DNA of 64,000 nt from Sphyrna mokarran (GCA_024679065.1 JAGIQG010000009.1:101122001-101186000); one strand, 5' to 3'; positions 6,874-61,560 are shown, numbered from the stretch's first letter. Numbers and translations: made by a program. The notes: generated by a model not told the origin, from the letters alone.

Positions 6874-6885
6874 CTTTGGTGACAG
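6874..6885 (-). CDS. Micro-exon P (12 nt, phase 1-1); SVTK
   Basis: ttcttttattcccctggaacag|CTGTCACCAAAG|gtaagt. Consensus donor, 362 nt after exon O. Confidence 0.62.
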
Positions 6886-7247
6886 CTGTTCCAGGGGAAT
6901 AAAAGAATATTTGGTAATGCCAAAAATGACAACAATGTAAAAACAGACAATGAACAAAATTAATATGCATTTAATTGCAACGCATATGTCCAATTGACAA
7001 AATATCGCAGACGCCAAAAACTAATGGCAAATTACACTTCGTTGAAATAGCTACAATTGTAACAAATTCAGTGTATGTCAAAGGTGAGCTTGAGTAATTT
7101 CTAATGCTGCAGCAGTTATTGATGATTAGTATCAAAATGCATTTATAATTGTTTTCAAAGGTTACTAATGTTTTGCTATTATGAATGTCTTGAAATATTT
7201 AGCGCAAATTCAAAGCAAAATTACGGTATTTTGTATTTATTTCTTAC

Positions 7248-7283
7248 AGTGCATTCCCAGTTTGTTCAGAATGTTATCAATAT
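7248..7283 (-). CDS. Micro-exon O (36 nt, phase 1-1); DIDNILNKLGMH
   Basis: ctcttttatttcttcag|ATATTGATAACATTCTGAACAAACTGGGAATGCACT|gtaaga. Same size and similar start (DIDN vs EIDD) as exon G. Confidence 0.72.
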
Positions 7284-7699
7284 CTGAAGAAATAAAAGAG
7301 AAACAGAAAATTCAACTTCATTTTTCATTATTTCAAAAAATAGGTAAACATCTGTAAATTGATTCAGACAGCTACCATTCTGGTTTTGGATTAATGTTTC
7401 AGAACACAATCAATTAACGGCTATTTTGTTGGGTTACCGATGAAATGAAAATGAAATTATTATCAATGTACTGGCAATAAGCTCAAAAGCACGTACAAAA
7501 ATAATGGAACACAAATATTCGGATTTTCAGCAACCTTTACTTTATTCGCTGTATTATTGTCACCTGTAACGTAATGCACTGAAATGTGTTGTTATGGCCA
7601 TTGGGTACATGGAGAGAAGCAAATAATAGCGTATCGAAGATAATCTTGCAACTTCAGTTAAAGTGAAGAAAAAGATCGACTTTATATAATACAGGTTCA

Positions 7700-9520
7700 T
7701 TCAAAAAGCAGGAAAGATGTTGTTCTCAAATCAGTTGGTCTAATGGAAGAAGGTAGAAGACAATATGTCCAGGGAGCATGAGGTCCTTGATTAGGTTGGC
7801 TGCTTTCCAGAGGCAGTGAGAAACGTAGACCGAATCAATGAATAAGGGGCTAATCTGTGTGATGGACTGTTCTACGCTCACAATCCTTTCTCATTTCTCG
7901 TCGTCTTGGCGAGAACAAGAACCATTTCAACCTGTTATACTTCCACGTAGGATGGTTTCTATAATGCATCTGTAATAAATGGTGAGAGTCATAGTGGACA
8001 CATGGAATTTCCTTCGCCTTCTGAGAATGTCGAGATTTATTTTTTTTTAAATTATATTGCCGGAAGGAACAGGAAAGATTGCTAGTAGTTTGATCACCAA
8101 GTGACTTAAAGCTTTCGACCATTTTCACTTCCGCGTCATCGATGAAGAGAACGACATGCTCATCCCTACGTTACCTGAAATCGATGAGTATGTTTATTAT
8201 GGACTGACATTAAGGGATAGAGCATTGCACGTTTTCCCCAAATTGTCTAGCGTTGGCAGCCAAACGTAATCTGCATCTGAAATATATTAACGGCTTTCGT
8301 GGTTACACAGAAGTACTACGTTATTATAATTACTTACAGCGATGGAAAAGTAGCGCTGTTACAAAATTCAGAGCAGGAATGATGCGAAAAAATAGTGGAC
8401 AACATTGTGATTTTGGTTAGAGCATTGCACGTTTTCCCCAAATTGTCTAGCATTCCCCCGTACTCCATCGGGTCATTATTTGAGACCTTACCCAATGCAG
8501 CGTTGCCATCAACAAAGCTGAAGGATGAGTTAGAACACAATTTCGCCATGTAGTCGTAAGTGTTTGAGGATTATAATAAGAGGCTGAGAATGGGGGCATG
8601 TGGAGATCTGGTATTCAAGATACCAGTGAGTTAATTGTCATTGCAGACTGTGGCCTCTGGGTTCAGAAGTTGAAGACCCAGTCGCAGCTGGAGACTCAAC
8701 GGCCTTGGCCACAAAATTTGGAGATGAGTTTCTTTAGAATGATGGTGTTTTCAGGACAAAGCTGTAACTAATATGTATGGATATGGTACAATTATCCTTC
8801 CTTCAGACGTTCCATGTTGACTGTAGGGTCGGGGAGTTCGCATCTGCTCTGGATCCGTTGCAGTGTTAGCTGGAAACTCGTGGATCTTGGCGACAAGAGT
8901 AGATGTGTACTGTAATGAACCTTTCGAAACACTTCAGAATTGTAGTTCTAAGAGCCACCGTTTGATAGAAATTTGGACATGCTACCTGCGTATTCTTTCA
9001 CACAATGATGATGGCCGTCTTCGTGAAGCAAGCAAGAATTCAGATTGAAATAAGGAGCAGTTAAAAACACCTGAAACTATCCTTGACACCTGTCATGCGG
9101 AGGATCTAACTGTTCATATTAGGATCCGATCCAGGCTATCGTTTTATTGGTAACTTTCAAGAACGCCGATCTGACGTCAGCCGTTGCAACTCTGAATTTC
9201 TGTTTGACAGAGATTGTCAAGATGGATGACATCCTTTCTCTCAGTTCTTGCTCAAAAGGAGAATTGAATATGTTGAGCTCATCACCTTGTTGTTGGCTGT
9301 TATGACGTGCAGACATTGCCCCAATCGATGGGTCTTCAGGTGGCTAGACTGAAGCTCTATCTTGGTGTGGTATTGCCAGTTGCCATTTCTGATGGTTGTG
9401 CATCGATCATATCTGATTTTCTGGTTTCTGGTTACACAGTTTTCTACATACTTGCTGATGCATTCAGCTACTGTGGTGCTATCCGCATTTAGGATAATCG
9501 TTCAGTTGATGAATATTGGC
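7700..9520 (-). mobile_element. Decayed Rex1/Babar-type LINE (RT and 3' region), interrupted by a templated insertion
   Basis: Characteristic 3' motifs (gaagatgttgttctcaaatcagttggt, tgtgatggactg...ctcacaatcc) followed by a degenerate RT-like region. Confidence 0.55.
8218..8451. repeat. 166-bp inverted insertion (8252-8417) flanked by a 34-bp perfect direct repeat
   Basis: tagagcattgcacgttttccccaaattgtctagc at 8218-8251 and 8418-8451. Confidence 0.93.
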
Positions 9521-10111
9521 AACTGACTCAAAAGGCTTGTGCAGGGGTTCACCCATTACTTCTCAAAATCGCACATCTTGATCGACTCCCTGCTTCACTA
9601 CTTGCTTGTAAGCTGAAGACAGGAGCCCAGATGTGTGCTCTGGTTTGACAAAGTATGGGCAGAAATAGAGCGGTAAACATATTTGACGTTTTTGCAGCCA
9701 TGATCGAGGATGGTCGGGCGAAGAATGGAACAGGGGATGTGTTGATTATGTCTTGGTAGCACGTTGTTGTGATTAGCCTGATTGACATCAACAGTCACAG
9801 TGAACATGCCTTGGAATATTGTGCCTGATTGATACCTGTTGTGGTATGTATTTCAGTGAACACAGTATTTGCATCCACATGTGGACGATAGTAAACTGAT
9901 TTGAGAATAACAGCAAGACCCAAACATTTCTTAGGCGAAGATGGTAAGTAGCACATGCATAGTTCACGTCTTGTATGATGTCCAGCAGGACTAACTAGAC
10001 TAGCAAGGACACATTGTGCTTTTACTTATAGTTGAGATGATACGCCTGGAGAAAGGGGCAACTTTACGCTCAGGTTCTCACCCAGGTACTAAGTATTGGT
10101 ATAAAAAGGTA

Positions 10112-10388
10112 GGACCACACGTGGCACAGTGGTAATCACTGTTGCCCCTCAGCGTCAGACACAATTTCCCGTCGGGTTCTCACTTTGCCTGCATGTGTTT
10201 CCTCCGGAGGCTATGGTTTATTTTCCCAACCCAAATATGTGCTGTTCGGTTTGAGTAACCATGAAAACTCTACTTAGAGTCAGAGGGATTAGCAGTTTAA
10301 TTAGCTGGGTGAGCCGGGATGATGCCAGTGTTGTTGATGCAGGCTCGATGGGCATAAAGGCTTCTTTCTGCAATGTGTTGATTTTAAG
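10112..10388 (+). mobile_element. HE1-like tRNA-derived SINE, decayed
   Basis: gtggcacagtggt A-box head; tttcctccgg...cccaaatatgtg core; gcaggctcgatgggc CR1-like tail. Confidence 0.75.
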
Positions 10389-10525
10389 CTTGGCTGCTAG
10401 TGCACTGAACTCAAAATGTGTTTGCTATTTCAAGTTCTAATTTTTTGAGTTATAAATTAACATATTTTCAAGATGTGAACTCTAAAACTAATTTGCCAAC
10501 GTGAGTCTAGCCAACACAAATTTAC

Positions 10526-10546
10526 CTTTTTCATACAGTAATTGGC
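10526..10546 (-). CDS. Candidate micro-exon N (21 nt, phase 1-1); GQLLYEK
   Basis: gctgacctgcaatgcag|GCCAATTACTGTATGAAAAAG|gtaaat. Weak pyrimidine tract, but it occupies the slot equivalent to exon F, before a 36-nt exon. Confidence 0.45.
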
Positions 10547-10859
10547 CTGCATTGCAGGTCAGCATTCATGAACCAATGTTTGCTTTCAACTACCAATATT
10601 TTAAGCCTCTGTAATGCAATTTCATTGGTATGGTATGTTTAGGAATTTGAGTGTTTCGATGTACATATTTTCGTTTGTGAAGGAAATAAAGTAATTGCAT
10701 GGACACAATGGGATATGGAGCAAATAGACAGAAGTTTGCTTACACCATACCTAAAGGTAATTTTTAGCTGTGAGACAAACTGACAAAATTATACATTGTC
10801 GATGAATAGATATCATTTGATGATGTAACTTGATTTTCACCTTTTTCAAAAACATTGAA

Positions 10860-11500
10860 AGAAGCAAGGCCAGAGTGCAAATCAACTTCGCAAAAGCAAA
10901 ATAACATTTTAAAAAGTTATTCAGACGCTCGTCAAAGTTTTAAGACATATGACTGACAAAACTTAAAATTGACAAAGCAAATGTTTCATGGAGAAGTGAA
11001 AAAAAAAACGAAAATGGACATAAACTTGCGGAAGAGATAAGAATCTGTACAAAAAACTATTTCCGGTTACTTAGAAAGAAAAGGCTAACAAGAAGCATAA
11101 TATAATTCATTTGAAATATATGCCTGTTTTAATATAATTTTAAGCAATGTTTCTGTGCCTCCATGACACTATGACTAAACTAAATTAAGCTAGTATTCTG
11201 TAGCAATAGTTGATAGAAAGGAAAATATTTTACATTCATTCATACATTCATTCAATCTGAGCGTTGAAAAGGCAATCGCGTAGTAACTTAATATTTTAAC
11301 CTGAATGATTAACACAATAGGAGGATGTTGGTGTTTCAATCCAAGATATTTACAGGAAGTAATCATAACACAAACTCAGAAATCATAGCAAACATTTCCA
11401 AATTGCTTGAAGGATGTGAATTATACTCTGGTAGTGAATAATTGAAACTTAATATCACTACTTCAGGACAGTGGGTCCAGACATCATAAGATAATAAATT
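10860..11500 (+). mobile_element. Very old CR1 LINE ORF2 remnant
   Basis: Degenerate matches to the CR1 linker and RT start (attgaaacttaatatcactacttcaggaca, resembling ANVTPLFKK). Confidence 0.35.
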
Positions 11501-11529
11501 TAAATTGGGGAAGATATTTTCCAGCTAGA

Positions 11530-11956
11530 AATAAATGCTGGTACGAGAATTTTTGGGATATTTGAACTGAGCTGTAGAGCCTGTAGGGATTGCAAATATT
11601 TTGTGAAGAATAATTAATTTCCTGACAAGTTAACTAAATATTCTCAGCAGGGTGCTACAAACGCAAACAGGAAGCATAATGTAAGCAACTAGAAAGCAAC
11701 AGTGAAGGTTCATGCATACGATTCTGTTCGATTGGCATTTCAGCTGAAGGAAGCGGAGTTTGATTTGGTGCATGAAGACCTCAGTCATGAATATATAATA
11801 TCAACAGATTAAATTATTTCACTTTCTAGCATACTGCTGAGACTATTTAGTTCACTTGTCAGGAAATTAATTATTCTTCACAAAATATTTGCAATCCATG
11901 CAGGCTCCACAGTTCAGATCAAATGTCCCAGAAGTTCTCAGTATTAGCCCTTATTT
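11530..11956. repeat. Long inverted repeat (about 130-bp arms, about 165-bp spacer), MITE-like
   Basis: 11530-11660 matches the reverse complement of 11824-11956, with a 44-bp perfect core at 11587-11630 / 11854-11897. Confidence 0.9.
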
Positions 11957-12199
11957 ATATTTATTGATGCCTCATTGATATATAATGCAAAACAAAAGAA
12001 TTGAAATGTGCATGCAATGGCGCATGTGGCTTAATTCAAACAATTCTCTTTGTTGGTGAATGAATGCAATAATAGTACTGTCATGAACGCTCTAGAAATT
12101 GATGACAGTTTACTTGGCCTCGTTGTACGAAACCCAGTTACGGAAGATCTGCTCTCTGATTGTCTCCAGAAAATGCTGTTCTCGGAAAGAAACACTTCA

Positions 12200-13010
12200 T
12201 GAATTCGTCAATGAGGCCATCATTTCCCAAATTTCTTCCCAAATCCTTTGATCGTCTTTTTCCCCAAGAGTTCTATCTGATTTCTGCTTAAATCAGGCAA
12301 TATTTAGATCTTAACTACACTCGGTGACAGTGAATTCTACACATTAACCAGCCTCCGGCTGAAGAAATTTCGACTCAACTCAGATCTAAATGGTTTACCC
12401 CTTGTCCTCAACAATGACCGATAGTTGGGAACACTATTTCAGAACCTACATTGACTAACATATAACAATGTTAGATTTTTATAATTTCTATAACATCTTC
12501 TCTCAGCCTTCCAAACCCAGTTCATATATTATCGACAGACTGAGCCTCTCCTCATATTACCGATCCGCCATTCCAGAAATTTGTCTGGTAAACCTTACTT
12601 ATACTCCCTCCATAGCAAGGATACTTTTCCTCAGGTAAGGACACCAGCAATGCACACAATGCTGCAGGTTTGGTTTCACCAACAGCCTATAAAATTACAA
12701 CAAAACATCCCTATGCTTACACTCAAATCGTCTCGCTACGAAGGTCAATATATCATTTACCTTCCTCACTGCCTGCTGTGTACCTGCACGCTTACTTTCA
12801 GCGACTGATGCACAAGGAGTTCAAATTCACCTCTCTCAATTTACATCCATTCAAGTCATAATCTATCTTGCTATTATTGCTGCCAAGTAGATATCCTCAT
12901 TCATCCAAATTATTCTGCATCTATCATGCAAATGTCACGCCCTCAGCTTGTCCAAATCGCCGCGAAGCATATCGGCATCCTCCTCACATCTGCTTCAGCC
13001 ACGACTTTGC
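12200..13010 (-). mobile_element. Old CR1 LINE 3' fragment
   Basis: Reverse-strand CR1 motifs: gaagaaattt...ctca, cctcaggtaaggacacca, gcacacaat...caggt, tgtacctgcacgcttactttcagcgactg. Confidence 0.75.
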
Positions 13011-13726
13011 TCTAATCATGTGATAAAAAGTCGAAATGCTCGCTGGTGATCCTATGAGAGCTAACATCATTCACAAATTCTCACGTATTGAATCCTTATT
13101 GCGGAGCAGGCGAGGAAACATGCAGACTCGTTTTTTTTTAAGCAGCAAGTGTATTAACTGCCATTGCCATCGCCGGTGTTCAGAGTTCAGAGTGCAGATT
13201 TTGGTTTATTCTAGGTGAAGTTATGTTTGCTTATTATCGTTTTGTTTTGACATACAGATGCCGTTACAAACAATGTTAAATTGTTACCCAGTTGAGCGTT
13301 TTCTCGAATCTAAAACGTCAGGAGCTTACCGCGAAGGAAATTTCTGACGGTGTCGTTATGCTAGACCAGGAAAACCTCAGAAACTAAGTAACGGGAAGAT
13401 AAGTTCCGTGCGACGTACTATCACGTACTTTAAAAAAAGAAAACTATGTGCGAAGAACTAGCACCACAAAGAAACTTCGTAGACAAATTTGAATGAACAC
13501 CAGGCGAGTTACAGTATCTATTGGTGAGCAATGATTTTGCATGAATGCAGAACCAGGAAGACATAATAGTCGGTCTAAAATTATAACTTAGTTGTTGATC
13601 CGTGCAGCCACATCCAGATGGAAATGGGAATTGGCTTCAAGACTGTGAGTGCATTTAAAAGCACACCAGAGTGAAAGCCACATTGCAAGGTTTAAACAGT
13701 ACCGTGTTTTCTGATTGAGCTCATAT

Positions 13727-14452
13727 TGTTACGGTTCAGGTTGGAACTCCGAAATGTTGTACGGAGTCCACCTGGAACATGAGTTTTGCATTTTGAATTT
13801 GGCATAGATAAACATTATTGCCATCACCTACTGTGGAGCTTATATCAAGCAAAGTTATTTAAGAATATAGTTAATATCTATAGAAAGAAAATTAGCACAA
13901 ACTTCTATCAATTACAAACAAGATACCTGAAGTGACATTATATTGTACAGCACTTAACAAATATATTTAACATATTCGAACGTAAACCAAAATCCCATAT
14001 TGGCTAAAACCTTTGAACAGTTTTAACACAGCAAAAACCAATTCTTTCATGATGCAGGATATTGAATAATTTTGTTGAAATAAGCAGTCTTCTGGATTCG
14101 CTTAGAAAATGTTAACGTCATAATATCTTCCCAGAACCTCAGAGAGAGACGTTCTTTTCAAGATACCATTTCCAGAAAGTTTACTGCAGAAAATAAGACT
14201 CTTTTTCCCCCTTATAAATAACAGAATATCCAAAACAATACCGAGATGGGGAAGCATTTTTTGTTTGTTTTAGCGTTCTGGTACTTCATCAACAGTAACG
14301 TCCCTGAAGCTGTGAGCTAAGATACAACTGAAGCGAAGAGATCTACAGAAATGATGATTGTTTAAAATAGTTTAAAATTTAAAATTTGTTTAAAGAAATA
14401 CTAACTTCACAATACATACGCTCAAATTGTTTACACTCAATACAGTCATGCC
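13727..14452 (-). mobile_element. Probable solo LTR
   Basis: Begins TGTTAC and ends near cagtcatg. Non-coding, with the composition seen in fish and shark LTRs. No TSD confirmed; orientation uncertain. Confidence 0.4.
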
Positions 14453-14859
14453 GAATGTGGACATTTAGTCATTTTACCTCCAGTATCTATACTAAATCTG
14501 TTTTTTTTTACATTGTTTTTAAATTTATTTCCATGGCCCTTGCACTTGATTGTTTACGAATTTCATTCTTCGAACTACTGTGATCTATCAAGTAAAAAAT
14601 TATTATTAATCATTTCCAAACTCTCATAATCCGGGTCGTACCAACACAACAATGTGTGCACACTACTTACAGACATTGCTCATCTCCAGCAAAACGAAAA
14701 ACACATCATCTCCATTTGTCATATGAATGTTGGAAGTTTCCACCTTCAACGCATGATTTACCGTTGTCTGCGAAACAAACTACAACAGGCATATAAAAAC
14801 GATACGATTATGTCACATAATAGGAATTGTGAGGAGTTTAACTAGCACACTCATACCCA

Positions 14860-15190
14860 AATATCTATGCGAAATTTACAAATCAGGAGAATGAAGGAAT
14901 ATATTCCATTTTATTTGATGAATGGACCATCAACATGACCGAACAGACCTCAACAACCCACAAGAAAATCTACAGTCCGCAGCATCAGAGCCCTCGCTAA
15001 CAACATATTCACCACTGATGCACATTTGCAGCCCGTGTGTCATGTGTCCATGATTCACCGCATCAACTCTAATTTCATAGCGTTTTCTAATTCTGCACAG
15101 TTTACTATCGACATAAGAGAATCAGATGACATATGAGATTCCAACAACAGTTCATTTCCCCACTCCTCCTCGTTTTTCACTAGCATGAAT
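14860..15190 (+). mobile_element. Degenerate LINE 3' fragment, same family as 1290-1490
   Basis: aaatcaggagaatgaaggaatatattcca...cattccaccactgatgcac...gtgtgt...catgattcaccgca. Confidence 0.45.
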
Positions 15191-15481
15191 TGTGGTTTGA
15201 CACTGAGCACAAACCAATAAGCTTGGCGTGAGAATCGGAACGTCTGAAATCATATGGTTAATTTATTACAAAACACCTACAGCCAGGTTAAGATTGAAGT
15301 TTACAATAATTTAAACATAACCTTAGTTTCAGACCTAATTGGGGATAAATAGATTCGTGTTCACGTAATTAGTTCAAAATAGTTTCTCGAGAGCAGTGCA
15401 TGAGTAAGTGTGGTAATTTAAAAATCTTTGATCCTTTCGACCAGTTTGTTTAGTCCAATGTTTTACCCCGGTGTCCTTATT

Positions 15482-16219
15482 TGCGATGTGGACAAAGTAC
15501 AAACACAAATAAAGGATCGACAAGTTTATTAACAAAAACATTACTAACCCTTAAATTACCCACATAATGCAAGAGAATGCCCCCAAATCAGATATACTAC
15601 CCGCAAAGATGGTTTGGTTAAAACTGCAGCGTCGATTCTCTGAATCACTCTGGTCTGTCACCACGAAGAGGAGTCTTGATGGCAGCTTCTTCTTCGTTCC
15701 TTCACTAGTCAGTCTTCCGAATGGTGAAGGGTCGCCTCCTTCATCGAGTCTTCTCGAGTCTTCCCCAGTCTTCCCGAGTTTTCCCTGCTGGAGTCTGAAA
15801 GTGTGTTCCATTATCCCCTGCCTGCTTGCCTTTCCAGAAACTTCTCTGGCTTCCGGCCAATGAGGTCCCAGGAGGGGGTTTCAATACCCAGTGTGATTCT
15901 TGATATCTGTCTGACAGGACACCAGGATCCGCTCCCAGGTGTCCATCTCCATGCTGCTGCTTACAGGTAACATGTTATCAGATTAAGCCAACTGCAAGAA
16001 CTCTCGGTGACAGAAAGTCTGGCCCAATCTGGGCTTCTAACAATAGGCTGATGCATTTCAATGGGATGCAATGATCTCCTGTTAAGTACCAGTAGGGTGC
16101 AACGAATTTTGATATGAGGTTGATGAGTAAGACTCAGACAGGTTTGTGAATTGTACAATTGGCCTGCCTGATGTTTGACTGTGATTGATTTTTAATATGC
16201 CCAATTCTTTAATTTAGCA
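15482..16219 (-). mobile_element. Probable solo LTR
   Basis: GC-richer island starting TG and ending CA, with a minus-strand AATAAA near the left end (aagtttattaac). The short ORFs have no recognisable domain. Confidence 0.4.
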
Positions 16220-16959
16220 TATCCAATTTTATCAGCCATAAGTTATATAAAATATCAAATAATATGAATATACGTGGTCTTAATAAACGGCGGAGACAAA
16301 CAAACGCGAACGTATCATTTCCAGACATAGTTTTATCTTGGGATTGCGATTGTTGAGTGAATTCAATGCCAAGGGGGAATTGCCGATTTCTAGACATATT
16401 GCACGCAAGAATGCGAACCACAGATTCGATCGCCAAAATCACAGATAAAATGAATAAGTAGGGATGTATTTGGCAAGATTGTGTTTTTTTTTAACTAAGG
16501 AGAACAGCACTTCAACTGTACCGTGGTAATTTATCTTTTACACAGTACTTCTCGCTTCTTCATTTAAATGTCTTTAATTTACTACAAATTAGTAATCCAA
16601 GTAAACGCCATGTATAAATGCAATAAGTTAGGGGAAGTAAATAGAAGCCAGTAAACTCCTATGTGATCCATAACAAAATCTGCAGTGGCAAGTTCTGCTT
16701 TCGAACTTCAGCCATAATCGGAGATGGAAACACTGAGGCAACGGAGAGGCGAGATTTTAATTAGACAACTGTTCGGGGGCGGGGAGTGTAGTTACCTCAG
16801 GCAAGTTGTTTGGAAAGTGACAGGATCAGCAATTCAAAATATACCACGTAGAAAATTAACTGATCCGAAATTTTCAACAGCCTTAACCTGCGTGTATCTT
16901 TCGTTAATCTTAAAACATGGAAAATGGGCCATTGAGAATAAAGCGCCTGGCGACGTCTA

Positions 16960-43498: not shown

Positions 43499-43537
<39 letters not shown>

Positions 43538-45530: not shown

Positions 45531-45539
45531 ACACATGCA

Positions 45540-51619: not shown

Positions 51620-52760
51620 AGAAAATGCCCAAAGATTGTAGGATCTGTACCTGAATTGTAGTCAAATGAAAAGGCTAAGGTTTATAGACGCCAGAATAGA
51701 GCAGAGCCTACAATGGCGCTGTAGTAATGACTCTTCTAATGAAGGACTTGAGCAACTACGTTGGGGAGTGCTGAAGAGTTTACAAGTAGTCAACCTCTTG
51801 AAAAATAAGAAGTTGAAAACGTTGTTTCTTTAATTCTCCTTTGCAGCTCAAGAACGTGAGTTCTTCTAATGGTATCGAGAAAAGCATGTGGCACAACAAG
51901 AAATGAAGTACACTGTCCACACAGATAGAGAAAATTAAAACCGCAGAGATTGCTGAGATAGCTTCCATTCCTAAAAAGAGACGTTTTGGGTATTTGTGGA
52001 AAAGAACAACAAAGTACATTCGCTCAAAGGCGCAGTAATACAATGAGAAAAGCGACAACTGCTGAGAACCAAAACAAAAGATTACAGCTCTAAAGTCTAA
52101 GTAATGGGAAAGGGTAATGTTTTTGCAATGACAATGAACTTAAAACATCAACCACAAGAAAAAAAAACAAATAGCAATCGGCAGGAACAGCCCAATAGAG
52201 GGCAACTCTTATAAATGTCTAAAGCAACGAAGACCTCCATAAATAGGCCACAAAATTCCTCAAATGAGAGAATTAAGGATTCAAGGAATAGACAATGCAA
52301 GACCTTAGCAGAAGGAATGAAGATCTCAGGAAGAGGCAATGGTAGACTTCAAGGAACTGGCAACGAAAGTTTCCAGAAGCAGTCATTGAAGGAAGACAGA
52401 ACGAGGGCATTACAAATGCCTTGAAGGATAGCACTAAAAAATCACAAAGAGGTCAACATAAGACAATAATAACAAGTGAATGGCAAGGAAATAATTGCAG
52501 AATGGAAATAAGTCAACATCATTGGAGACAGCTTGTCTAAGACTGAAGCCCGAAGTGTTAGGCTGGAGTGATGAGAAATAAAAATGTATGTTCTATTTTG
52601 TGAAATGCATATATCCAGCAAAACAAGACAGGATAAATTCATTCTCAGTGTAGATTAAGTTGAATTCAATGAAAACATATCTTGTATATACGAGTAAATC
52701 CAGTCAAAAATCGAATCAGGAGAATAAGAACTTGATAATATCACTTCTGCAACTAGAAAT
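51620..52760 (+). mobile_element. Very old CR1 endonuclease/linker remnant
   Basis: ggatctgtacctgaattg and gagcaactacgttgggg resemble YLNARS / FLEQYV motifs; strongly purine-skewed. Confidence 0.4.
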
Positions 52761-54734
52761 TAACTGAAGAGAATAAATTATTAAATTTGGCAGTTGAATC
52801 AATAATTCTAGCATGGAAAGAAGCTGAGATATTCTTCCATATGGAAGCTTGCTGAAAATTTGAGATAAAAGAAAAATTTGCAAACATGTGTGACAGAGTT
52901 CCATACACATGAACTGGCCTTACTTAAAATGTACCAATAAAATGCGTGTGCATGTGTGTTTTTTTTTAACAGACAATCCTCAAGATGTAATTAATGCACC
53001 ATCTACGCTGCAACAATATAATATTATATTAAGTACATGTCCTAATGTATTAAGGTCATGGTGTTATAAAGAAAACCTCAATAGCGGATAAAATTAGATC
53101 CCCGGAATCATCGTCGCTGATATAGACCAAAGTAGCACAAAATATGCATGGTGGAATGGATCATTTTCTAATGGTTTAAATCGTTTAAGTAGAGGAACGC
53201 TCCAGTATTCAGTGTATATAGCAAGAAATATGGATATTCTTGTAAGAAGTGAAGTGTGTGGTCGACATGTAGACATAACTGAAGCTTCCATGGAAACAAG
53301 GACTAATGAATAGCTTGTGTCAGAAGTAGTATTCATTTTCGAAAGTTCCTCATTATGTTAATCCGATGGAACCACCTAAATAAGTAGAATTCCAAAGTTC
53401 AATTTAAAACAGAGAGAAAAAAAAAACAGGTGTGCAAAATTTTAGGACCTTCAACTGAGTGACTTTGTATAGAAAACTCTATAAGGGTTTGAAATAGAAG
53501 GACTTTTGTGGCGATTGTCTTTTTAAGCGCTAACAGCAGAAAAGGATCACTTGGCTTGAGGGAATAATGCAAAAGGGAGCGGGTAATCCGCCCATGTATG
53601 GAGTGCTATGTTAGGCAGATAACATTGAAAATATACGGAGAAGAGATGCAGGGACTGGAGGGAACAAGGTAGGCTGCTCTATGACAGCCGTGGACTGAGA
53701 GCCCATCATTTTTTTAACTAATTTATAAATTTTATTCGTCCTTTTAATGGAGTCTGTGAACATGCATCATCACAGTTTACACTATGTCGAGAAAGATTAG
53801 AAAACTGACTAAAGCCGTCCACATTTGACAGACACGTGTGGACAACAGGAATACCGTCCTGTGTAATTTTACAGCTCCACCGCTAAATTTGTGAAAAGGC
53901 GGCATTGTTGTCCTAATCATTAGTAGCTTATTTGTGATGACACTACATATGAATATTACTGTAAAATTGTATTAATAAGGAATAGTATTTAAAAGGGTTT
54001 TTTTGTATAGAAGTATAACATCAAGCTAAATGCCCATAACAATAAAGAATGGAAAATGTGCATGCGATAGTTTTATTTCGGTCAAAGTAGTTAAAGTCAA
54101 CCAGCAAATACATAATCTGACGCGGAGTAATAGTGCCGAGATATTTCAGTTCCATGCAGAGGCAAACAAGTGAAAAGCAGCTGGGCCTGTGACAGGCAAA
54201 CAAGTATCCATGTTAATTGCAATTAAATTAAAATTATTTCAATAGCTTTTTCCAGTTTTGCTGTAATGTCATCTGACTATTTTTTGTCCTGTTCAAACCA
54301 AATTAAAATAACACTATTATTTCCTTCTGATTTTCTTTAAATTACTCTGCACCAAAATCAATGCACGTTGCAGATGCATATCTGTACAGGTTCTGGTAGG
54401 AATGACAGTCGCAAACACTTGCTGGGCAACATGAGCCTTTACATTCAGGACACAATTCATTCCTTTGTGTGGCAGTACCACAGATTATAACTCATAGAAT
54501 TTGGTCAGATGACACGCAGTGGACCATCAGTTGTAATCGAGTTATCCACAACAGTTGCATGGATATTCCAGGAAGTCCAGAAGACCTCATTCCAGCAAGC
54601 CAGCATAATTTACAAAATTTGGGAGACACACACAGAAAACCTGCCTGCGCTTGACAACTTCTGACTCTAAAACCAAAACTAAAACCTTTTAGTTTTGGTT
54701 TTAGGAGAAGGTCTCTCTTCCCCTTCTTAAACCT

Positions 54735-56051
54735 TTGTTTAAGAAGGGGAAGAGAGACCTTCCAGGGAATTATAGGCCAGTGAGTCTTACTTCTGTTGTG
54801 GGCAAGGTATTGGAGAGAATTATTAGGGATAGGATTTATAGTTATTTAGAGAGAAATGAATTGATTGGGAATAGTCAGCATGGTTTCGTGAAGGGTAGGT
54901 CGTGCCTTACTAACCTCATTGAGTTTTTTGAGAAAGTGACCAGAGAGGTGGATGGGGGTAAGGCGGTTGATGTAGTATATATGGACTTTAGGAAGGCGTT
55001 TGATAAGGTGGCCCATGGAAGACTTCTACAGAAAATGCAGATGTGTGGAATAGAGGGTGATTTAGCTAATTGGATTAGGAATTGGCTGGCAGATAGAAGA
55101 CAGAGGGTGGTGGTTGATGGGAGATATTCATCGTGGAGTTCGGTGACGAGTGGTGTGCCTCAGGGGTCTGTTTTGGGGCCCCTGCTGTTTGTAATTTTTA
55201 TAAATGATCTGGATGAGGGTATTGAGGGATGGATCAGTAAATTTGCAGATGATACTAAAGTTGGTGGTGTGGTAGATAGTGAAGAGGGGTGTTATAGTTT
55301 ACAGAGTGACTTGGACAAGTTGCAGAGCTGGGCCGAGAGGTGGCAAATGGAGTTTAATGTGGAAAAGTGTGAGGTAATGCACTTTGGCAGGAACAATAAA
55401 TGTGTAGAGTATAGGGCTAATGGTAGGGCTCTTAATAGTGTTGAGGAACAGAAGGATCTTGGTGTATGTGTCAATAGATCCCTGAAAGTAGGCAGTCAAG
55501 TGGATAAAGTTGTTAAGAAGGCATATGGAGTCTTAGCTTTTATTGGTAGGGGGATTGAATTTAGGAGCTGCAGCATCATGTTGCAACTGTACAAAACTCT
55601 AGTGCGGCCGCACTTGGAGTATTGTGTGCAGTTCTGGTCCCCACATTATAAGAAAGATGTGGAGGCATTGGAGAGGGTACAGAGGAGGTTTACCAGGATG
55701 TTGCCTGGTATGGAGGGCAGGTCCTATGAAGAGAGGTTGAAGGATTTGAGGTTGTTTTCTTTAGAAAGGAGGCGGCTAAGAGGGGATCTTATTGAAGCAT
55801 ATAAGATGATTAGAGGTTTAGATAGGGTGGACAGTGATAGCCTTTTTCCTAGGATGGAGAAAGCTAGCACGAGGGGACACAGCTTTAAATTAAGGGGTAT
55901 GAGTTATAGGACGGATATCAGAGGTAGGTTCTTTACTCAAAGAGTGATTAGGGAGTGGAATGCCCTGCCTGCAGCTGTTGTAGATGCGCCAAGTTTGGTG
56001 GCGTTTAAGAGGTTAATTGATAAGTATATGGAAGAGAAGGGAATGGTTTAG
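54735..56051 (+). CDS. CR1 ORF2 reverse transcriptase (truncated)
   Basis: 438-aa open frame with NYRPVSLTS, QHGF, GVPQGSVLGP and FADD. Confidence 0.9.
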   Translation: MFKKGKRDLPGNYRPVSLTSVVGKVLERIIRDRIYSYLERNELIGNSQHGFVKGRSCLTNLIEFFEKVTREVDGGKAVDVVYMDFRKAFDKVAHGRLLQKMQMCGIEGDLANWIRNWLADRRQRVVVDGRYSSWSSVTSGVPQGSVLGPLLFVIFINDLDEGIEGWISKFADDTKVGGVVDSEEGCYSLQSDLDKLQSWAERWQMEFNVEKCEVMHFGRNNKCVEYRANGRALNSVEEQKDLGVCVNRSLKVGSQVDKVVKKAYGVLAFIGRGIEFRSCSIMLQLYKTLVRPHLEYCVQFWSPHYKKDVEALERVQRRFTRMLPGMEGRSYEERLKDLRLFSLERRRLRGDLIEAYKMIRGLDRVDSDSLFPRMEKASTRGHSFKLRGMSYRTDIRGRFFTQRVIREWNALPAAVVDAPSLVAFKRLIDKYMEEKGMV

Positions 56052-56140
56052 TTTGGAGGGCATTGCTTTTTATTTTGGTCGGCACAACATCGAAGGCCGA
56101 AGGGCCTGTTCTGTGCTGTAATGTTCTATGTTCTATGTTC
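54737..56140 (+). mobile_element. Young 5'-truncated CR1 LINE with intact RT frame
   Basis: ORF 54735-56051 is nearly identical to 28312-29883; (ttctatg)n tail; candidate TSD ctaaaa at 54679-54684 and 56140-56145. Confidence 0.97.
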
Positions 56141-56492
56141 TAAAAGTGGATCACTGAAGTCTTCCAGGCAAAGCCGCCAGACTTTGACTTGCTAGTTATT
56201 GTTTTCCCTCATCATATAGGGTAATAAATCATAGAAAGTGCCTGAGATTCAGAGGAAACATAAACAAAGTTCCAGTTAAAATATTGAAACAACAATAAAA
56301 GGACATCTAGCAGACGGCCCAGCAACAACAGCAAAAAACAAAGCTGTGCAACTGCAGTGAAAAATGTATTTCGTAAACTAACACTGACATCATGCTTCAT
56401 ATAAAATACATGTTCAATATAAAATCCCTGATGGAACTAGATCTTAGACAAAATGGTCATTTTTAAATGTACAATGGGTTTCTGCGGATTAC

Positions 56493-56519
56493 CTGATTCT
56501 TTCTGTCTCAGCTGATCCT
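56493..56519 (-). CDS. Micro-exon E (27 nt, phase 1-1); EDQLRQKES. An alternative upstream acceptor gives a 48-nt in-frame form (56493-56540).
   Basis: cattgtttttaacag|AGGATCAGCTGAGACAGAAAGAATCAG|gtaatc. Confidence 0.72.
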
Positions 56520-57399
56520 CTGTTAAAAACAATGTTATTCCTGAAAGTACTTGCAAGTTCAAAGCAAAACCAATTGCAAAGCAACGGGGAAGCACAACTA
56601 AAAATATTGGAAAAAATAATTAACAAGTATTCGTTTTCATGTTCATTATCCGTTAAACTGTTACTATTGATCTGCCGTGATTTGTTAATTAGCATTATTT
56701 GCGGAAATGTGAAAATAATGTGCTCACCTGTTTCCTTTAGTTTTTTCTCACAATCTTTTAATCCTGTAATAGATGAATGGAATGTTTGGATTGCGGGATT
56801 TCAGTAACCACACCTGTTTTCTATGTGATAGTGTTTTAGCTCTTTTATTTCAAGATTCCATTGTTTTCTTCATTTATATGTCTCACTGCTTGTGCACAAT
56901 ACATCCAATTGTGGAACACGTCAGGATATGATAGCCATGGGATATTGTGCCGTTACCTGCCCCTCTTACATAACATGAGCATTTCGATACTTCAAAAAAA
57001 TTAAGATGTAGAAGAGAAAAAAAATCTTCATCAATGCATTTCACCAATGGTGTGTCCCAAACCCATGAAGTGGTATTTTTATTTGTACAGCAACGATGTG
57101 AATTCGCATGGATTTATCAATGTTCTTTATTAACTAACGCTTTTCTTTGACTTATAGTTTTGTTGGATAATAGTGGCAAGTTGAACACGCCAAATGAAAT
57201 AAGTATTTCTGCAAAAACAAAATCAAGGATGTTTTTGGCATTGTTTTCATTGCCATTGATCTCGCGAATTCCAAATGAAATAAGCCATTTTCTAATGGCG
57301 TTTGAAATTGAAAACAGTTGTCTAATGAAAGTAAATCGCATTTGACGTTCATTACCGAAATACTTCGATAATAAAATTGTATTATATGTGTGATCTTAC

Positions 57400-57423
57400 C
57401 TTTCAATTGTGAAGTTTTTTCCG
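57400..57423 (-). CDS. Micro-exon D (24 nt, phase 1-1); AEKTSQLK
   Basis: tttttctattacgccacttacatcag|CGGAAAAAACTTCACAATTGAAAG|gtaaga. Confidence 0.72.
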
Positions 57424-58059
57424 CTGATGTAAGTGGCGTAATAGAAAAATACGTAAGTACGGAGAAAGTGATTGCTTTGATACATTGAGCCAAAATGTTA
57501 AATGCTGGCTTTTTTTTCTCACATACATCGAAGTCGAATATATTTCCAACAGCCAATCCAAGTAAAAACGTCAATATTCCTCCTGCCAGAAACTCATATG
57601 TTCTCTCCTTTAAGCCTCTGAGGAGAAGGAGATATAATATTGTCAGGTTCATGTATCTTGTGGTTCTGTTTTTACAATCACGTTGATACAATCTATTTTT
57701 TCGTGATTTTGTGAAATATTATAACCTTACGCACTTAGCGAGTGGCGACATTGAAGAAAACGATTTGGTTAAAATTAGTTATTTTTACATAAATCGACAG
57801 CATAGAAGGGGGAAATAAGGGACACCAATCTTAAAGCCTGAGTTTAAGACATAGTCAATGATTATCAACCATACCATCATCAAACTATGTTATCTATATC
57901 GAGATACAATCTTATTGGATGTTTCATCTCTTTGCTGCTCCTAACCAAATTTATCATATGTCTACATGAATCACCTAAAGAACGGGCAACTATATAAAAA
58001 CTTTACTGATGCATTGATCTGAATTAATTCATGTGACTTACATATCGCTAGGTATGTCA

Positions 58060-58360
58060 GCATGTGTTGTCCGCTGCCAATGCTCCTTGAAGTAAATGGC
58101 GTGCATGGGCATTTCACAGTTTATTTAAATTGCACATTTAACCCAGAGTAGATAAGGCCAGTTTTGTTTCCTACCGAACATTATTGAATCAGGTGGATGT
58201 TTAGACAAATAAAAAAAAAGTTACAGTTAACATTAAGCTTTTATTTCTATTGTTTTACTCAATTCAAATTTCACCAAGTGTTCTTTTGGTTTCGAACATG
58301 TGCTCCCAGATTATTCTCCTGGGTTTCTGGATTTCCAATCCCCTAAATCACGCGCTGCTA
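58060..58360 (+). mobile_element. DeuSINE/SacSINE1-like remnant
   Basis: agagtagataaggccagttttgtttcctaccgaacattattgaatcaggtggatgttttagacaa...aattcaaatttcacca...ttcgaac...cccagatta resembles the Deu domain and tail. Confidence 0.6.
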
Positions 58361-58716
58361 CAGTTCGAATAGGTAAGGAAATCCACTACGGAAAGATAGG
58401 ATATAAAACAAGTTAGTAGATTTTTTTTCCCTGCAATAACATAAACAAAATTTCGTTCCACACAAAATGACAGCGTGTTTAAAATTTTAACATCTCCAAA
58501 AATAATACTTATGTCGAAACACTTTTTTGGGAGTGTACTTTCCTGTCAAGGGATTCTGAATTAATAAATACTGATACTTTGCACACTGCTTGTTCTAGCA
58601 CAAACAACTCTTTTAGTTCGTGTCAACAAAATATCTTGTCTGCTCCGGATCGTTCAAGAATAATTAACAAGTCTTATTCTGATCAGTACATCTTGAAATT
58701 GTAATTGAGGTCTTAC

Positions 58717-58743
58717 CAAGTAGTAGTCGAAGATTGTCATTTT
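58717..58743 (-). CDS. Micro-exon C (27 nt, phase 1-1); ENDNLRLLL
   Basis: atttcattatatgatag|AAAATGACAATCTTCGACTACTACTTG|gtaaga. Continues the heptad pattern from exon B. Confidence 0.75.
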
Positions 58744-58893
58744 CTATCATATAATGAAATATAACAATTCAAACAATGCACAGCCGAAAAAATGCTGACT
58801 GCATAATTTATTTATGTATTACTTCCAACATTTTTTTTTTCTCTCCGTAAGTTTTATTATATATCTAGACGTTTTCAGGAACTATGTTATCTA

Positions 58894-59198
58894 GAGCGTG
58901 ACGGTGGCACAGTGGTAATGCTGATGCCTCATAGCGCCAGGGACCTAGGTTCAATTCCAGCCTCGGGTCACTCTTTATATGGACCCTGAACGTTCTGCCC
59001 GTGTCCGCTTTCTTCCCACAGTCCAAAGATATGCTGGTTAGTTTGATGTCCATGATAAATTAAATTTAGTAGCGGGGGAGCAAGGGATTGGCAGAGTAGA
59101 TATTTCAGATCATGGTGATAGGTCGTGGGAGTGGTTTTGGCCATTGCAGACCCGATGGCCCATATTGTTTCCTTCTGCAGTGTAGGGATTCTATGATA
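58894..59198 (+). mobile_element. HE1-like tRNA-derived SINE
   Basis: cggtggcacagtggt...gcctcatagcgccagggacctaggttcaattcc (A and B boxes)...cccacagtccaaagat...ctgcagtgtagggattctatga. Confidence 0.9.
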
Positions 59199-59289
59199 CA
59201 ATGAACCTTGAATTTGGAAGTATAGGGAAATAAGACATAAAACTGTTGTCGGCAGTTTCTGAACTCTTTACAAGTAACCTAAAAGATTA

Positions 59290-59785
59290 TGTCTGTGTAA
59301 GGATGTGCTGGCCTTGGAAAGGATCCAGAGGTGGTTCACAATAATGATTCTTGGAATGAAGAACTTGTCATATGAGAAACGCCTCTGTATTTGATGGAAC
59401 TTAGAAGGATGGGGCGGGGGGTGGGCAGGATTTTATTGAAGCTTACAGAATAGTGTGAGGCCTGGATAGAGAGGACGTGGACAGAATGTTAACACTAATA
59501 TGATAAACTAGAAGCTGAGGCTAATCTCGGGCTAAAGGAACGATCTTTTAGAATAGGGATGAGAAGTGATTTCTTCAGCCATCGTGTGGTGAATCTGTGG
59601 AACTCTGCCACAAAAGGCTATGGAGGCTAGGTCTCTGAGTTAAGTAGGTTCTTGATTACAAGTGGACGAAGGATGTTTGGGAAATGACAGGAGAATGGGG
59701 ATGAGAAGGTATCAGCCATGATTGAATGCCCGATCAGACTCGATTGTCCGGGTGGAATAATTCTGCTCCTATGCCTTATGGCCTA
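59290..59785 (+). mobile_element. Old CR1 3' fragment
   Basis: aaggatgtgctggccttgga...ttcttcagcc...gtggtgaatctgtggaactc...tcagccatgattgaatg...ttctgctcctatg. Confidence 0.88.
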
Positions 59786-59838
59786 ATCAAATAGAAATAA
59801 AATGACAATCCAAAAATGCAGAAAGCTTAATCCATTAC

Positions 59839-59856
59839 CTCGTTTCAGCTGTTTTG
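59839..59856 (-). CDS. Micro-exon B (18 nt, phase 1-1); AKQLKR
   Basis: catttccttcatttcag|CAAAACAGCTGAAACGAG|gtaatg. Confidence 0.75.
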
Positions 59857-60559
59857 CTGAAATGAAGGAAATGCTCCATTAGTAAAGCACAATTTATCTT
59901 TTCTTCCCCTATCATTGATGGTGAACTAACATTGACAGGTTTACAACATTATCTATCGAGCGCAGTTGACTGCTGTCTCTGAACCACTGAACTGAACAAC
60001 AACATTGACCGCTATCACGCCACTGTTCTGCATCATTTTGCGTAATGGTTCTCTCTTCAAAAATGATAACGTTTGAGTTTGCGGACTAGGACCAGGCGAA
60101 AGAGACGTATTTTCTCAATTATTCGATTAAAGAAGCTGCACAATTATTTTAGAATCCTTGCAATCATCTCGCTGTGATATCAATATCGTTGAGCTGAGTA
60201 GTCGGAGAATATGTGCTGTTTAGATTCATTGTCTGTACTTTTCAAAGAGCTTCAAATTTAGAAGTACTTTCATATGCAGATGTTTTCACATTATTTTATG
60301 CCTTGTCATTGCATGTTATCATGAGTACCAATACTTCAGAGCTCGATTTCCCAATCAGCTAATCCTTCTTCTCCAATCAGACCAGTCATTCTTCATTTAA
60401 GTAATCTGGTACTTGATTGTCGACTGTGTTTTCATGCAACTATTGTTAATTTAATGAAATTTTGAACTGTGTTACCAAATTCCTGCAAGCAAACATCCTA
60501 ATTTTCCCCCGAAGATAAAAGTGCCACTTTTTTTCCACTGTCGTCAAGAACACAGGAAT

Positions 60560-61490
60560 CGACACATGTGTCATAGAGCCAAAGAATCAGTCAGTTTTAC
60601 AGCAATAAATGATGTCAGTACCCTCTTGCTCACTGTGTCGGGCATCAAATATGTATCAAGTCTAATCCTATGTTCCAGCAGGTAGTCCGTAGTCTTGTAA
60701 GATATGGGTTTCAAATGCTCATCTAAATGCTTCCTAAACATTTTGTAGATAATGCCTCCACCATCTAATCAGACCACACTCTCCGTCAAAATGGTTTTCG
60801 TCAGTTATCACATAAAACTCATGTTCCTTATTTTCGTTTAATTGTTCGGCACCCAAGGTCTCTTTAGTCCCGTGTGCTGGCCATTATACAGCAGTTAATT
60901 GTCTTTCCATCACTTCATAATCCTTTCAATGTACATGTCATTACCTTTCTAAATTGATTTCCATTTGCCACTATTTTGTTCATCTGAAGAGATAGTGTAT
61001 ATCGTCCCATAATCTGATGTTTTCCTCTGTGCTATTTAACACATAAAAATAATTTGTGTCATCTGCTGCAAACTTACTGATCATCTTGGGATCTCATTTT
61101 ACTTTGCCAGTCAATGTTTTACATACTCCTGTTGACTCTCATAATTTATTTTAATGTTCCTCTCTCCTCCCAACTCACCCCTCACATTTTCTATACTCCT
61201 TTAGGAGATCTGTTTTGAGCGCTCTGAATCTCTCAGAACCCTTCCTTTTTTGTGTCATCAGTGCTGAATATCTGTTGACTTCCCAGGTTCTCCGAACGAG
61301 TTGGTCTCACTCTTTACCGTCAAGAAATGTTCTGGCATTCAAATGGGAAAGTCAAATACTTCCCATTTGAATGACACCCACTGCTGAGGATTTATTACAC
61401 TTTTACTACATTTATGTGTAGTAAATTATGCTACATGTTGCTGCTTCCAGTCCCTTTTCCTCAGCTTCTGTCTTATCCTATTAAAATTGG
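60560..61490 (-). mobile_element. Highly decayed CR1
   Basis: gtcatagag...atctaaatgcttcctaaac...ttccatttgcca...tttgtgtcatctgc...aaactt. Confidence 0.55.
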
Positions 61491-61536
61491 ATGAATTGAA
61501 TGCGTGATTAAGTACAGTTTATTTGAATATATTTAC

Positions 61537-61560
61537 CAGTATCATTCGAAGGAGTTTTTG
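61537..61560 (-). CDS. Micro-exon A (24 nt, phase 1-1) of unidentified coiled-coil micro-exon gene; (x)KTPSNDT
   Basis: Minus strand: atttctttttcccacaaacag|CAAAAACTCCTTCGAATGATACTG|gtaaat. Good pyrimidine tract, length 3n, no stop in phase 1. Confidence 0.7.

What the first reader, a model, noticed from the sequence alone, without database searches (positions are those of the whole stretch)
6874..61560. Hidden minus-strand gene built from symmetric phase-1 micro-exons encoding a coiled coil
Seen in sequence: 13 segments of 24, 18, 27, 24, 27, 24, 36, 27, 18, 27, 27, 36 and 12 nt (327 nt over about 55 kb). All have pyrimidine tract-AG and GT(A/G) ends, are multiples of 3, are stop-free in phase 1, and lie outside the recognisable transposons; 12 of 13 end in G. 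Joined in order they read xKTPSNDTAKQLKRENDNLRLLLAEKTSQLKEDQLRQKESDGILVQKKEIDDMENALKVLEQQLVAKSEVSELWAEIRKLQNEIVDRFKTTKDDIDNILNKLGMHSVTK. Hydrophobic periodicity runs across splice junctions (I..M...L..L...L over G/H; V..L...I..L...I over J/K), which chance splice sites would not produce. Established: strings of small phase-1 exons encoding heptads occur in the tails of chicken BG antigens and butyrophilins (BTN/ERMAP), and in TSBP1; triadin also has many small exons. Inference: this is an unidentified, possibly chondrichthyan-specific member or analogue that ORF scans and ab initio predictors would miss. Caveats: I selected exons by eye using the 3n/phase-1 criterion, and no start, Ig, TM or B30.2 exon is securely visible in the window.
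Basis: partly seen in the sequence, partly recalled or inferred. Interest (0 to 1): 0.92.

Follow-up and report, generated by a model that had tools for sequence, protein, structure and literature searches.

The report
Megabase shark micro-exon coiled-coil gene
These tiny scattered exons are a small slice of a huge array in the immune (MHC) region of a shark-like fish, where hundreds of 12-48-base exons spell out a very long protein rod of a family whose members end in a B30.2 binding domain and that automatic annotation captures only in mislabelled fragments.

Summary
All 13 segments exist; two more exons (56728-56763, 34547-34582) were missed. A model trained outside the window finds 12 minus-strand exons against 0 on the plus strand. 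The series runs through 2.27 Mb of contig C1548, between two B30.2 (PRY-SPRY) terminal exons, in the TRIM/butyrophilin cluster next to MHC class I. 158 exons in 649 kb join without a stop into a heptad rod whose register depends on exon order (p=0.005). Six paralogous arrays on C668 each end in a B30.2 exon of the same clade, found only in cartilaginous fishes. Catshark RefSeq proteins match the exons of the neighbouring gene and of the array's 3' end in register, and isoforms skip 6-9 residue cassettes. No Ig-C2, RING, TM or leader exon was found, so it is neither a butyrophilin nor a TRIM. Open: whether the window's exons splice to the B30.2 exon 2 Mb away (about even; that exon has a premature stop here), the 5' end, and expression (no reads laid). 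The scan found this family before in two other genomes.

The parts
61537..61560 (-). micro-exon, 24 nt, phase 1-1 (weak score 5.1)
59839..59856 (-). micro-exon, 18 nt
   Evidence: 8.5
58717..58743 (-). micro-exon, 27 nt; module exon with three look-alikes further down the array (100.388, 99.726, 99.291 Mb), the last identical to catshark XP_038671249.1 residues 124-131
   Evidence: 11.0
57400..57423 (-). micro-exon, 24 nt
   Evidence: 12.0
   Evidence: 22.8
56493..56519 (-). micro-exon, 27 nt; matches the family 27-nt exon pattern
   Evidence: 13.0
49122..49145 (-). micro-exon, 24 nt (weak score 4.9)
41683..41718 (-). micro-exon, 36 nt
   Evidence: 16.0
41273..41299 (-). micro-exon, 27 nt
   Evidence: 14.3
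   Evidence: 14.3; adding it and 56728-56763 raises heptad signal
32015..32032 (-). micro-exon, 18 nt, with a second acceptor 6 nt downstream (12-nt form from 32026 scores higher)
   Evidence: 5.8 and 10.0
26810..26836 (-). micro-exon, 27 nt
   Evidence: 14.2
23930..23947 (-). possible further micro-exon, 18 nt (borderline)
   Evidence: 7.0; not used in the 15-exon test
19651..19677 (-). micro-exon, 27 nt
   Evidence: 11.6
7248..7283 (-). micro-exon, 36 nt, ends in T (strong acceptor, weak donor; 5.7)
6874..6885 (-). micro-exon, 12 nt
   Evidence: 7.9
1..64000 (-). the whole window lies inside the array, which runs off both ends: from about 185 kb beyond the right end (first exon at C1548:101.37 Mb; neighbour gene A's B30.2 exon at 101.418 Mb bounds it) to the candidate terminal B30.2 exon at C1548:99.103 Mb, 2.02 Mb beyond the left end (premature TGA 21 codons before its end)

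Best explanation
The window holds about 15 internal exons of an expressed member of a chondrichthyan gene family built as: a long run of 3n, phase-1 micro-exons (mostly 36 and 27 nt) followed by one B30.2 exon. Shown by sequence: the exons, their frame, the heptad register across junctions (a 36+27 pair is 21 residues, three heptads), growth by tandem intragenic duplication, the rod-plus-B30.2 layout of seven paralogs. Inferred: the product is a soluble cytoplasmic parallel coiled-coil dimer, without RING, Ig or TM, that holds two B30.2 heads at the end of a rod; because every exon can be skipped or duplicated in frame, rod length is set by alternative splicing and by duplication, so the protein works as an adjustable spacer or tether for whatever the head binds. 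Most likely origin (inferred): the cytoplasmic half of a butyrophilin-like gene (heptad micro-exons plus B30.2 exon) cut loose from its Ig and TM exons and amplified, the mirror image of chicken BG, which kept Ig and TM and has no B30.2. I put it at about even odds that the window's exons reach the 99.10 Mb B30.2 exon in one transcript.
For: Exon statistics. Stop-free 1,518-residue join, power at period 3.5 of 2.85 against 1.53 +/- 0.15 for shuffled exon order; hydrophobic residues at positions 1, 4, 8 of 36-nt exons (0.93, 0.81, 0.67) and position 3 of 27-nt exons (0.75); junction codon Glu in 116 of 157. Duplicate exons 89% identical against 70-81% for the listed alignments among the 11-kb units, differences by codon position 0.057/0.099/0.16. 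All 37 C668 hits of the 27-nt pattern lie upstream of, and on the strand of, a clade B30.2 exon (80 hits, 8 in the control). 18 such B30.2 domains form one side of a branch against 61 ordinary TRIM/BTN ones (SH-aLRT 100, quick tree). Gene A exons chain on catshark XP_038672306.1 (score 294, plus strand 60); exons at 99.29-99.32 Mb match XP_038671249.1 residues 8-139. RefSeq isoforms differ by 9- and 6-residue cassettes. Pfam finds only SPRY above its cut-off in 9 of 9 relatives. Nearest solved relative BTN3A1 B30.2, 114.8 bits against 100.7 for TRIM21, and the first 11 Foldseek ranks are BTN3. BG tails are 21-nt exons with split codons (PMC5938342, passages); finTRIM coiled coils are coded by 96- and 234-nt exons (PMC2657112, passages).
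Against: No read evidence for any junction in this genome. The catshark protein tied to the 99.10 Mb exon covers only about the last 0.22 Mb of the array, and does not chain on the window-side exons better than shuffled order (493 against 457 +/- 21, max 498). The 99.10 Mb exon has a premature TGA that removes the last two strands of the fold. No start exon was found. RefSeq models look open at the 5' end, so their lack of Ig/TM/RING is weak evidence. The tree does not resolve BTN against TRIM origin, and the Foldseek margin is small (E 6.9e-14 against 2.1e-13). The exon model favours K/E/L composition, so counts at score >=7 are partly circular outside the window test. The cytoplasmic location rests on absence only; glycosylation sequons are neither enriched nor depleted in the window-side rod (4 against 3.4).
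Confidence: 0.62

Rival explanations
1. The 2.27-Mb array is three or four tandem genes of about 0.5 Mb; the window lies in an upstream one that has no B30.2 exon and makes a rod-only protein (or shares the last exon through separate promoters).
For: The six C668 paralogs span about 0.33-0.56 Mb each. One module exon recurs four times at 0.4-0.8 Mb spacing (that pattern alone had 9 hits against 14 in the control) and another 11 times in clusters (control 0). Exons are sparse at -263 to -325 kb. Another array at 98.13 Mb has no clade B30.2 downstream.
Against: No terminal or first exon stood out in 649 kb (weak screens); longest gap 30 kb; at the 3' unit's apparent start five more exons follow upstream within 9 kb; three whole-gene copies would each have had to lose the last exon.
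Confidence: 0.3
2. It is a true butyrophilin/BG-type or type II membrane protein whose Ig or TM exon was missed, with the rod as a giant tail or stalk.
For: Exon phase and B30.2 likeness to BTN3; real butyrophilin Ig-C2 exons on the same contig; models are 5'-open; the Callorhinchus 1,697-residue model and the skate model begin with a hydrophobic stretch; one ATG-led hydrophobic frame ends at a donor at +293,706; V-set search scored only 150 of 1,261 candidates.
Against: No Ig-C2 between 97.4 and 109.2 Mb or in C668 8.5-14.4 Mb (88 of 88 scored); no Pfam hit over its cut-off in 67 of 67 ORFs between gene A's end and the array's first exon, nor in 82 of 113 upstream of gene A; leader-like exons 18 on minus, 16 on plus, many being pyrimidine tracts read through, which is also how the skate start looks (inference).
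Confidence: 0.15
3. The array is a decaying pseudogene in this lineage.
For: Premature TGA in the 99.10 Mb exon where the catshark has Arg; longer branch than its catshark and basking-shark relatives (0.55 against 0.20 and 0.24).
Against: 104 of 109 length-class segments stop-free in phase 1; exons better kept than introns in recent duplicates; several exons identical to catshark at 8 of 8 residues. The stop may be one allele or an assembly error.
Confidence: 0.08

Closest known systems
Chicken BG (B-G) antigens
   Same: Long coiled-coil tail coded by dozens of small symmetric exons with split codons, length varied by duplication and splicing, next to the MHC (PMC5938342, PMC4046983, PMC8813856; passages).
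   Different: BG has Ig-V and TM, 21-nt one-heptad exons (about 30) and no B30.2; here no Ig/TM found, 36+27-nt three-heptad pairs, hundreds of exons, kilobase introns, B30.2 at the end of family members.
Butyrophilins (BTN3A1 nearest in PDB)
   Same: Heptad stretch followed by B30.2; best sequence and fold match; same genomic cluster.
   Different: No IgV-IgC2-TM; rod of thousands of residues instead of a few heptads; the His351 needed for phosphoantigen sensing (PMC7348870, passage) is absent in 18 of 18.
C-IV TRIM proteins (TRIM39, A33, TRIM58, TRIM69: names given to the RefSeq models)
   Same: Coiled coil followed by a B30.2 exon; about 120 B30.2 exons surround the locus.
   Different: No RING or B-box; TRIM-type coiled coils are coded by large exons (PMC2657112); B30.2 in a separate clade.
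RefSeq models XP_038672306.1 and XP_038671249.1 (Scyliorhinus canicula), XP_069775384.1 (Narcine), XP_042192744.1 and XP_042191566.1 (Callorhinchus)
   Same: Same family: rod plus clade B30.2; the first two are orthologs of the genes flanking and ending the array.
   Different: Automatic, apparently 5'-open, 230-1,697 residues; none was found that covers the window's exons.

Membership tests
Butyrophilin | IgV + IgC2 ectodomain | tested here: not met
   No C2-set_3 exon near any of the eight genes, 88 of 88 candidates scored; no Ig hit in 149 5' ORFs; V-set genome search scored 150 of 1,261, inconclusive alone
Butyrophilin | Transmembrane exon before the heptads | tested here: inconclusive
   One ATG-led hydrophobic frame at +293,706, none upstream of gene A on minus, three on plus as control; true 5' end unknown
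Butyrophilin | Heptad exons followed by a B30.2 exon | tested here: inconclusive
   Met for gene A, the 3' end of the array and six C668 paralogs; not shown for the window's own exons
Butyrophilin BTN3A1-type phosphoantigen sensor | His351 in the B30.2 pocket | tested here: not met
   Ser/Thr/Asn or gap in 18 of 18; Trp391-equivalent kept in 15 of 18, and three basic positions (BTN3A1 numbering 393, 412, 469 recalled) in 16, 18 and 13 of 18 (alignment-based)
BG | Single Ig-V plus TM, no B30.2 | tested here: not met
   Family ends in B30.2; no Ig-V found at the 5' end
BG | Tail of small symmetric exons coding heptads | tested here: met
   unit is 36+27 nt, not 21 nt
TRIM | RING and B-box | tested here: not met
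   None in 9 of 9 relatives, in 149 5' ORFs, or (RING only) between 98.94 and 101.97 Mb and in C668 8.5-14.4 Mb (150 of 391 candidates scored)
B30.2/PRY-SPRY superfamily | PRY-SPRY beta-sandwich | tested here: met
   Gene A exon: Pfam SPRY E 2.6e-12, model pLDDT 89.4, TM-score about 0.8 to BTN3A1. The 99.10 Mb exon is cut short by a stop
CCDC7 (BioT2) | PF15368 match | tested here: inconclusive
   No match in the genome, but nothing rang in controls either
Type II C-type lectin with coiled-coil neck | Terminal C-type lectin exons | tested here: not met
   None between 97.51 and 113.9 Mb on C1548 (150 of 152 scored)
TSBP1 / triadin | Sequence homology or synteny | not tested
   No reference sequence was searched

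The most novel reading that the evidence does not exclude
The whole 2.27-Mb run from 101.37 to 99.10 Mb is one transcription unit with roughly 430-830 micro-exons coding a coiled-coil rod of about 4,000-8,000 residues (up to about a micrometre, from the recalled 0.15 nm per residue) tipped by B30.2, with length tuned by cassette splicing. That would match dystrophin in span and exceed titin in exon number (2.2 Mb and 363 exons, both recalled), inside the extended MHC region, and be invisible to current annotation.
Probability: 0.33. Interest if true: 0.92.

Novelty: new variant of a known kind. Interest (0 to 1): 0.72.

Why it matters
It defines a third way of combining the butyrophilin parts: BTN keeps Ig, TM, a few heptads and B30.2; BG keeps Ig, TM and many heptad exons; this family seems to keep only a vastly amplified rod and B30.2, in sharks, rays and chimaera, so since before these lineages split. 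At least eight such genes fill about 5 Mb of this genome, two beside the MHC. They make testable how hundreds of 18-36 nt exons are spliced across kilobase introns, and whether rod length is a regulated variable. They also show that RefSeq names such as TRIM39-like or A33-like hide an undescribed family.

Tried and rejected
RNA evidence: the run search gave four runs holding 0.07-0.11 of the words of a stretch that includes a LINE; no reads were laid, so this is no evidence either way. Long ORF scans found only LINE reverse transcriptases in the window. A loose 36-nt exon pattern was barely above control (85 against 47); used only for positions on C668 and C1548. A search for long relatives of the catshark rod (1,655-4,725 residues, 7,997 candidates scored) found none at E<=1e-10. 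Chaining four relatives on the window-side exons did not beat shuffled order, so none is the ortholog of the window's exons. The 18-nt candidate at 39196-39213 lies in a repeat and was dropped. A secreted form was considered from the skate model's hydrophobic start and set aside: my own scan produced the same kind of start by reading through pyrimidine tracts. C-type lectin and CCDC7 readings were dropped. A fold of the full Narcine protein on five isoforms gave a helical rod (pLDDT 56-83 in blocks) but an unusable B30.2. ESM Atlas listed SPRY-bearing clusters of 1,277-1,802 residues (scores 0.93, 0.91, 0.76): leads, membership untested. The careful tree did not finish; the quick tree is reported. 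GC-rich islands at +420, +135, -42, -171, -232 kb were read and not assigned. Literature: seven full-text searches listed no paper on this family; subscription journals and supplements were not seen.
Full report
Setting. The window is G000:C1548:101,122,001-101,186,000 of a 2.77-Gb genome. Its named relatives below are all from cartilaginous fishes. Positions written +n or -n are window-relative; Mb positions are on the contig.

Observation. All 13 segments are present on the minus strand as described, outside repeats. Two 36-nt exons were missed: 56728-56763 and 34547-34582. A model of splice sites, length and composition trained on 63 exons outside the window finds 12 minus-strand exons at score >=7 and 9 at >=10; the plus strand gives 0 and 0; 25 resampled sequences give 0.76 and 0.12 on average. 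Without any coding criterion, the length spectrum over 758 kb peaks at 27 and 36 nt on minus only (40 and 40 of 299; plus 3 and 6 of 185), and 104 of 109 segments in the peak classes are stop-free in phase 1 against 59 and 43 in the other phases.

Extent. I fetched 400 kb on each side. The series runs from +369 kb to the end of the fetched DNA at -400 kb. An apparent gap at -53 to -111 kb is five 11-kb tandem units, each with 36-, 27- and mostly 30-nt exons; their exons are 89% identical, the listed alignments among the units 70-81%, with most change at third codon positions. A gap at +249 to +306 kb holds a phase-1 terminal exon at +296,777 coding a PRY-SPRY domain; it ends a shorter neighbour, gene A. 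Below it, 158 exons at score >=7 in 649 kb join into 1,518 residues without a stop. Samples and pattern searches show the same exons at 100.64, 100.59, 100.54, 100.45, 100.30, 99.84, 99.81, 99.57, 99.52, 99.38, 99.33-99.29, 99.25, 99.23 and 99.12 Mb. The first clade B30.2 exon downstream is at 99.103 Mb; two searches found none between it and gene A (150 of 187 and 146 of 146 candidates scored). Most of 99.11-100.72 Mb was not read base by base. At densities of one exon per 2.4-6 kb it would add 270-670 exons.

Family. The six closest paralogs of gene A's B30.2 lie on C668 (8.56-14.32 Mb). A 27-nt exon pattern gives 80 hits (control 8): 37 on C668, every one upstream of and on the strand of one of those exons, 13 in the C1548 array, 1 at 98.13 Mb, 29 scattered, most of these sharing one recurring motif that looks repeat-derived. 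A profile of the eight exons against 1.84 billion proteins ranks ten single domains first (one of the ten came); nine are named or clustered with proteins of Scyliorhinus, Narcine, Leucoraja, Cetorhinus, Hemiscyllium and Callorhinchus, one is unnamed. These 18 domains are one side of a branch against 61 ordinary ones (SH-aLRT 100, quick tree; multi-domain hits and some further single-domain hits were left out). Gene A pairs with catshark XP_038672308.1 (99), the 99.10 Mb exon with XP_038671249.1 (96).

Independent support for the exons. Gene A's exons chain on the catshark protein (15 exons, 6 junctions in exact register, score 294; plus strand 60). At 99.285-99.335 Mb, 13 exons fall in order on XP_038671249.1 residues 8-139: for 8 the best match in the protein is the colinear place (up to 8 of 8 identical), the other 5 I placed by order and length. 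Five more exons lie within 9 kb upstream, and the model's first Met seems to fall inside an internal 24-nt exon, so the model is probably open at its 5' end. Isoforms differ by 9-residue (catshark) and 6- and 9-residue (Narcine) cassettes; that these rest on RNA reads is my inference from how RefSeq isoforms are made. Against: none of four relatives chains on the window-side exons better than shuffled order, so the window's own exons have paralogous, not orthologous, support.

Neighbourhood. All 53 MHC class I matches are on C1548 at 85.8-95.8 Mb; about 120 of 150 listed B30.2 exons at 91.8-112.9 Mb; butyrophilin-type Ig-C2 exons at 94.4, 97.4 and 109.2-111.6 Mb. PMC12841164 (passages) reports butyrophilins on the MHC chromosome of several cartilaginous fishes.

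What is missing. No Ig-C2 or RING exon belongs to any of the eight genes, no Pfam domain over its cut-off in 149 ORFs at the 5' ends, no excess of leader exons, one doubtful hydrophobic frame. No start was found. The 99.10 Mb exon has TGA where the catshark has Arg, 21 codons before the end; in the model of the paralog that stretch forms the last two strands. No reads were laid.

How it most likely works. Shown: symmetric phase-1 exons, heptad register, tandem growth, B30.2 ends in seven paralogs. Inferred: a cytoplasmic coiled-coil dimer with two B30.2 heads and a rod whose length is set by exon skipping and duplication, acting as spacer or tether. The head keeps Trp and three basic residues at positions matching the BTN3A1 pocket but never His351 (H351, Y352, W391 from PMC7348870 passages; the other numbers recalled), so an anionic ligand is possible and phosphoantigen sensing of the BTN3A1 kind is unlikely. 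A BG-tail product regulates actin-myosin (PMC5938342, PMC8813856, passages), a possible analogy only. Origin from a butyrophilin tail is favoured by exon layout and by the best PDB matches, not by the tree.

One gene or several. For several: paralogs measure about 0.33-0.56 Mb, module exons recur in about four blocks, exons thin out at -263 to -325 kb, and an array at 98.13 Mb lacks a clade B30.2. For one: no end or start exon seen, no gap over 30 kb in 649 kb, continuity across the last block's apparent start. I give about even odds that window exons reach the B30.2 exon, and 0.33 that the entire 2.27 Mb is one unit.

Novelty. Works like a BG tail joined to a butyrophilin head; member of neither BTN, BG nor TRIM on the features tested. 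Seven searches found no paper on it. Papers seen as passages only: PMC8813856, PMC5938342, PMC4046983, PMC12841164, PMC2657112, PMC7348870; PMC4028361 was not held. Two earlier findings of this scan describe the same gene type in other genomes; I saw them after reaching this reading. Verdict: real, new variant of a known kind, interest 0.72.

Noticed in passing
window 28303-29883 (+), 54705-56051 (+), 30076-30600 (-): Two near-identical LINE ORF2 fragments with reverse transcriptase (Pfam RVT_1) and a third LINE-like 3' fragment, all in introns of the array; CR1 type is my recall.
   Followed up: partly
L104 (C1548:98.132-98.136 Mb, minus): A further micro-exon array (27, 36, 27 nt) below the TRIM genes at 98.16-98.93 Mb with no clade B30.2 downstream; seven tandem single-exon C-type lectin domains lie on the same strand at 97.46-97.51 Mb. 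A link was not tested.
   Followed up: partly
L091:2315-2374 (C1548:99.103 Mb): Premature TGA in the B30.2 exon where the catshark has Arg; longer branch than its orthologs. Allele, error or decay unknown.
   Followed up: partly
window-relative -53,000 to -111,000 (L027-L033): Five 11-kb intragenic tandem units, each adding about 31 residues, not a multiple of seven.
   Followed up: partly
window 32015-32032: Two acceptors 6 nt apart, giving an 18- or 12-nt exon in the same frame; similar in-frame double acceptors recur in the array.
   Followed up: no
window 46000-48000: GC-rich stretch (0.50 against about 0.38), probably a decayed element; two of its frames gave no Pfam hit.
   Followed up: partly
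L057 (about +420,000): CpG-rich segment with an 18-nt tandem repeat; looks like part of a mobile element rather than a promoter; not identified.
   Followed up: no
C1548:81.1-81.8 Mb: Cluster of more than 20 Ig V-set exons on both strands, 4 Mb from the MHC class I genes.
   Followed up: no
proteins P0090, P0092: Unnamed proteins with a TM-like segment, a coiled-coil neck and an ordinary B30.2: a type II membrane layout outside the clade studied here.
   Followed up: no
proteins P0157, P0057, P0021, P0017: Starts of several automatic models look like intron read-through or LINE sequence, which can mimic signal peptides (inference).
   Followed up: partly
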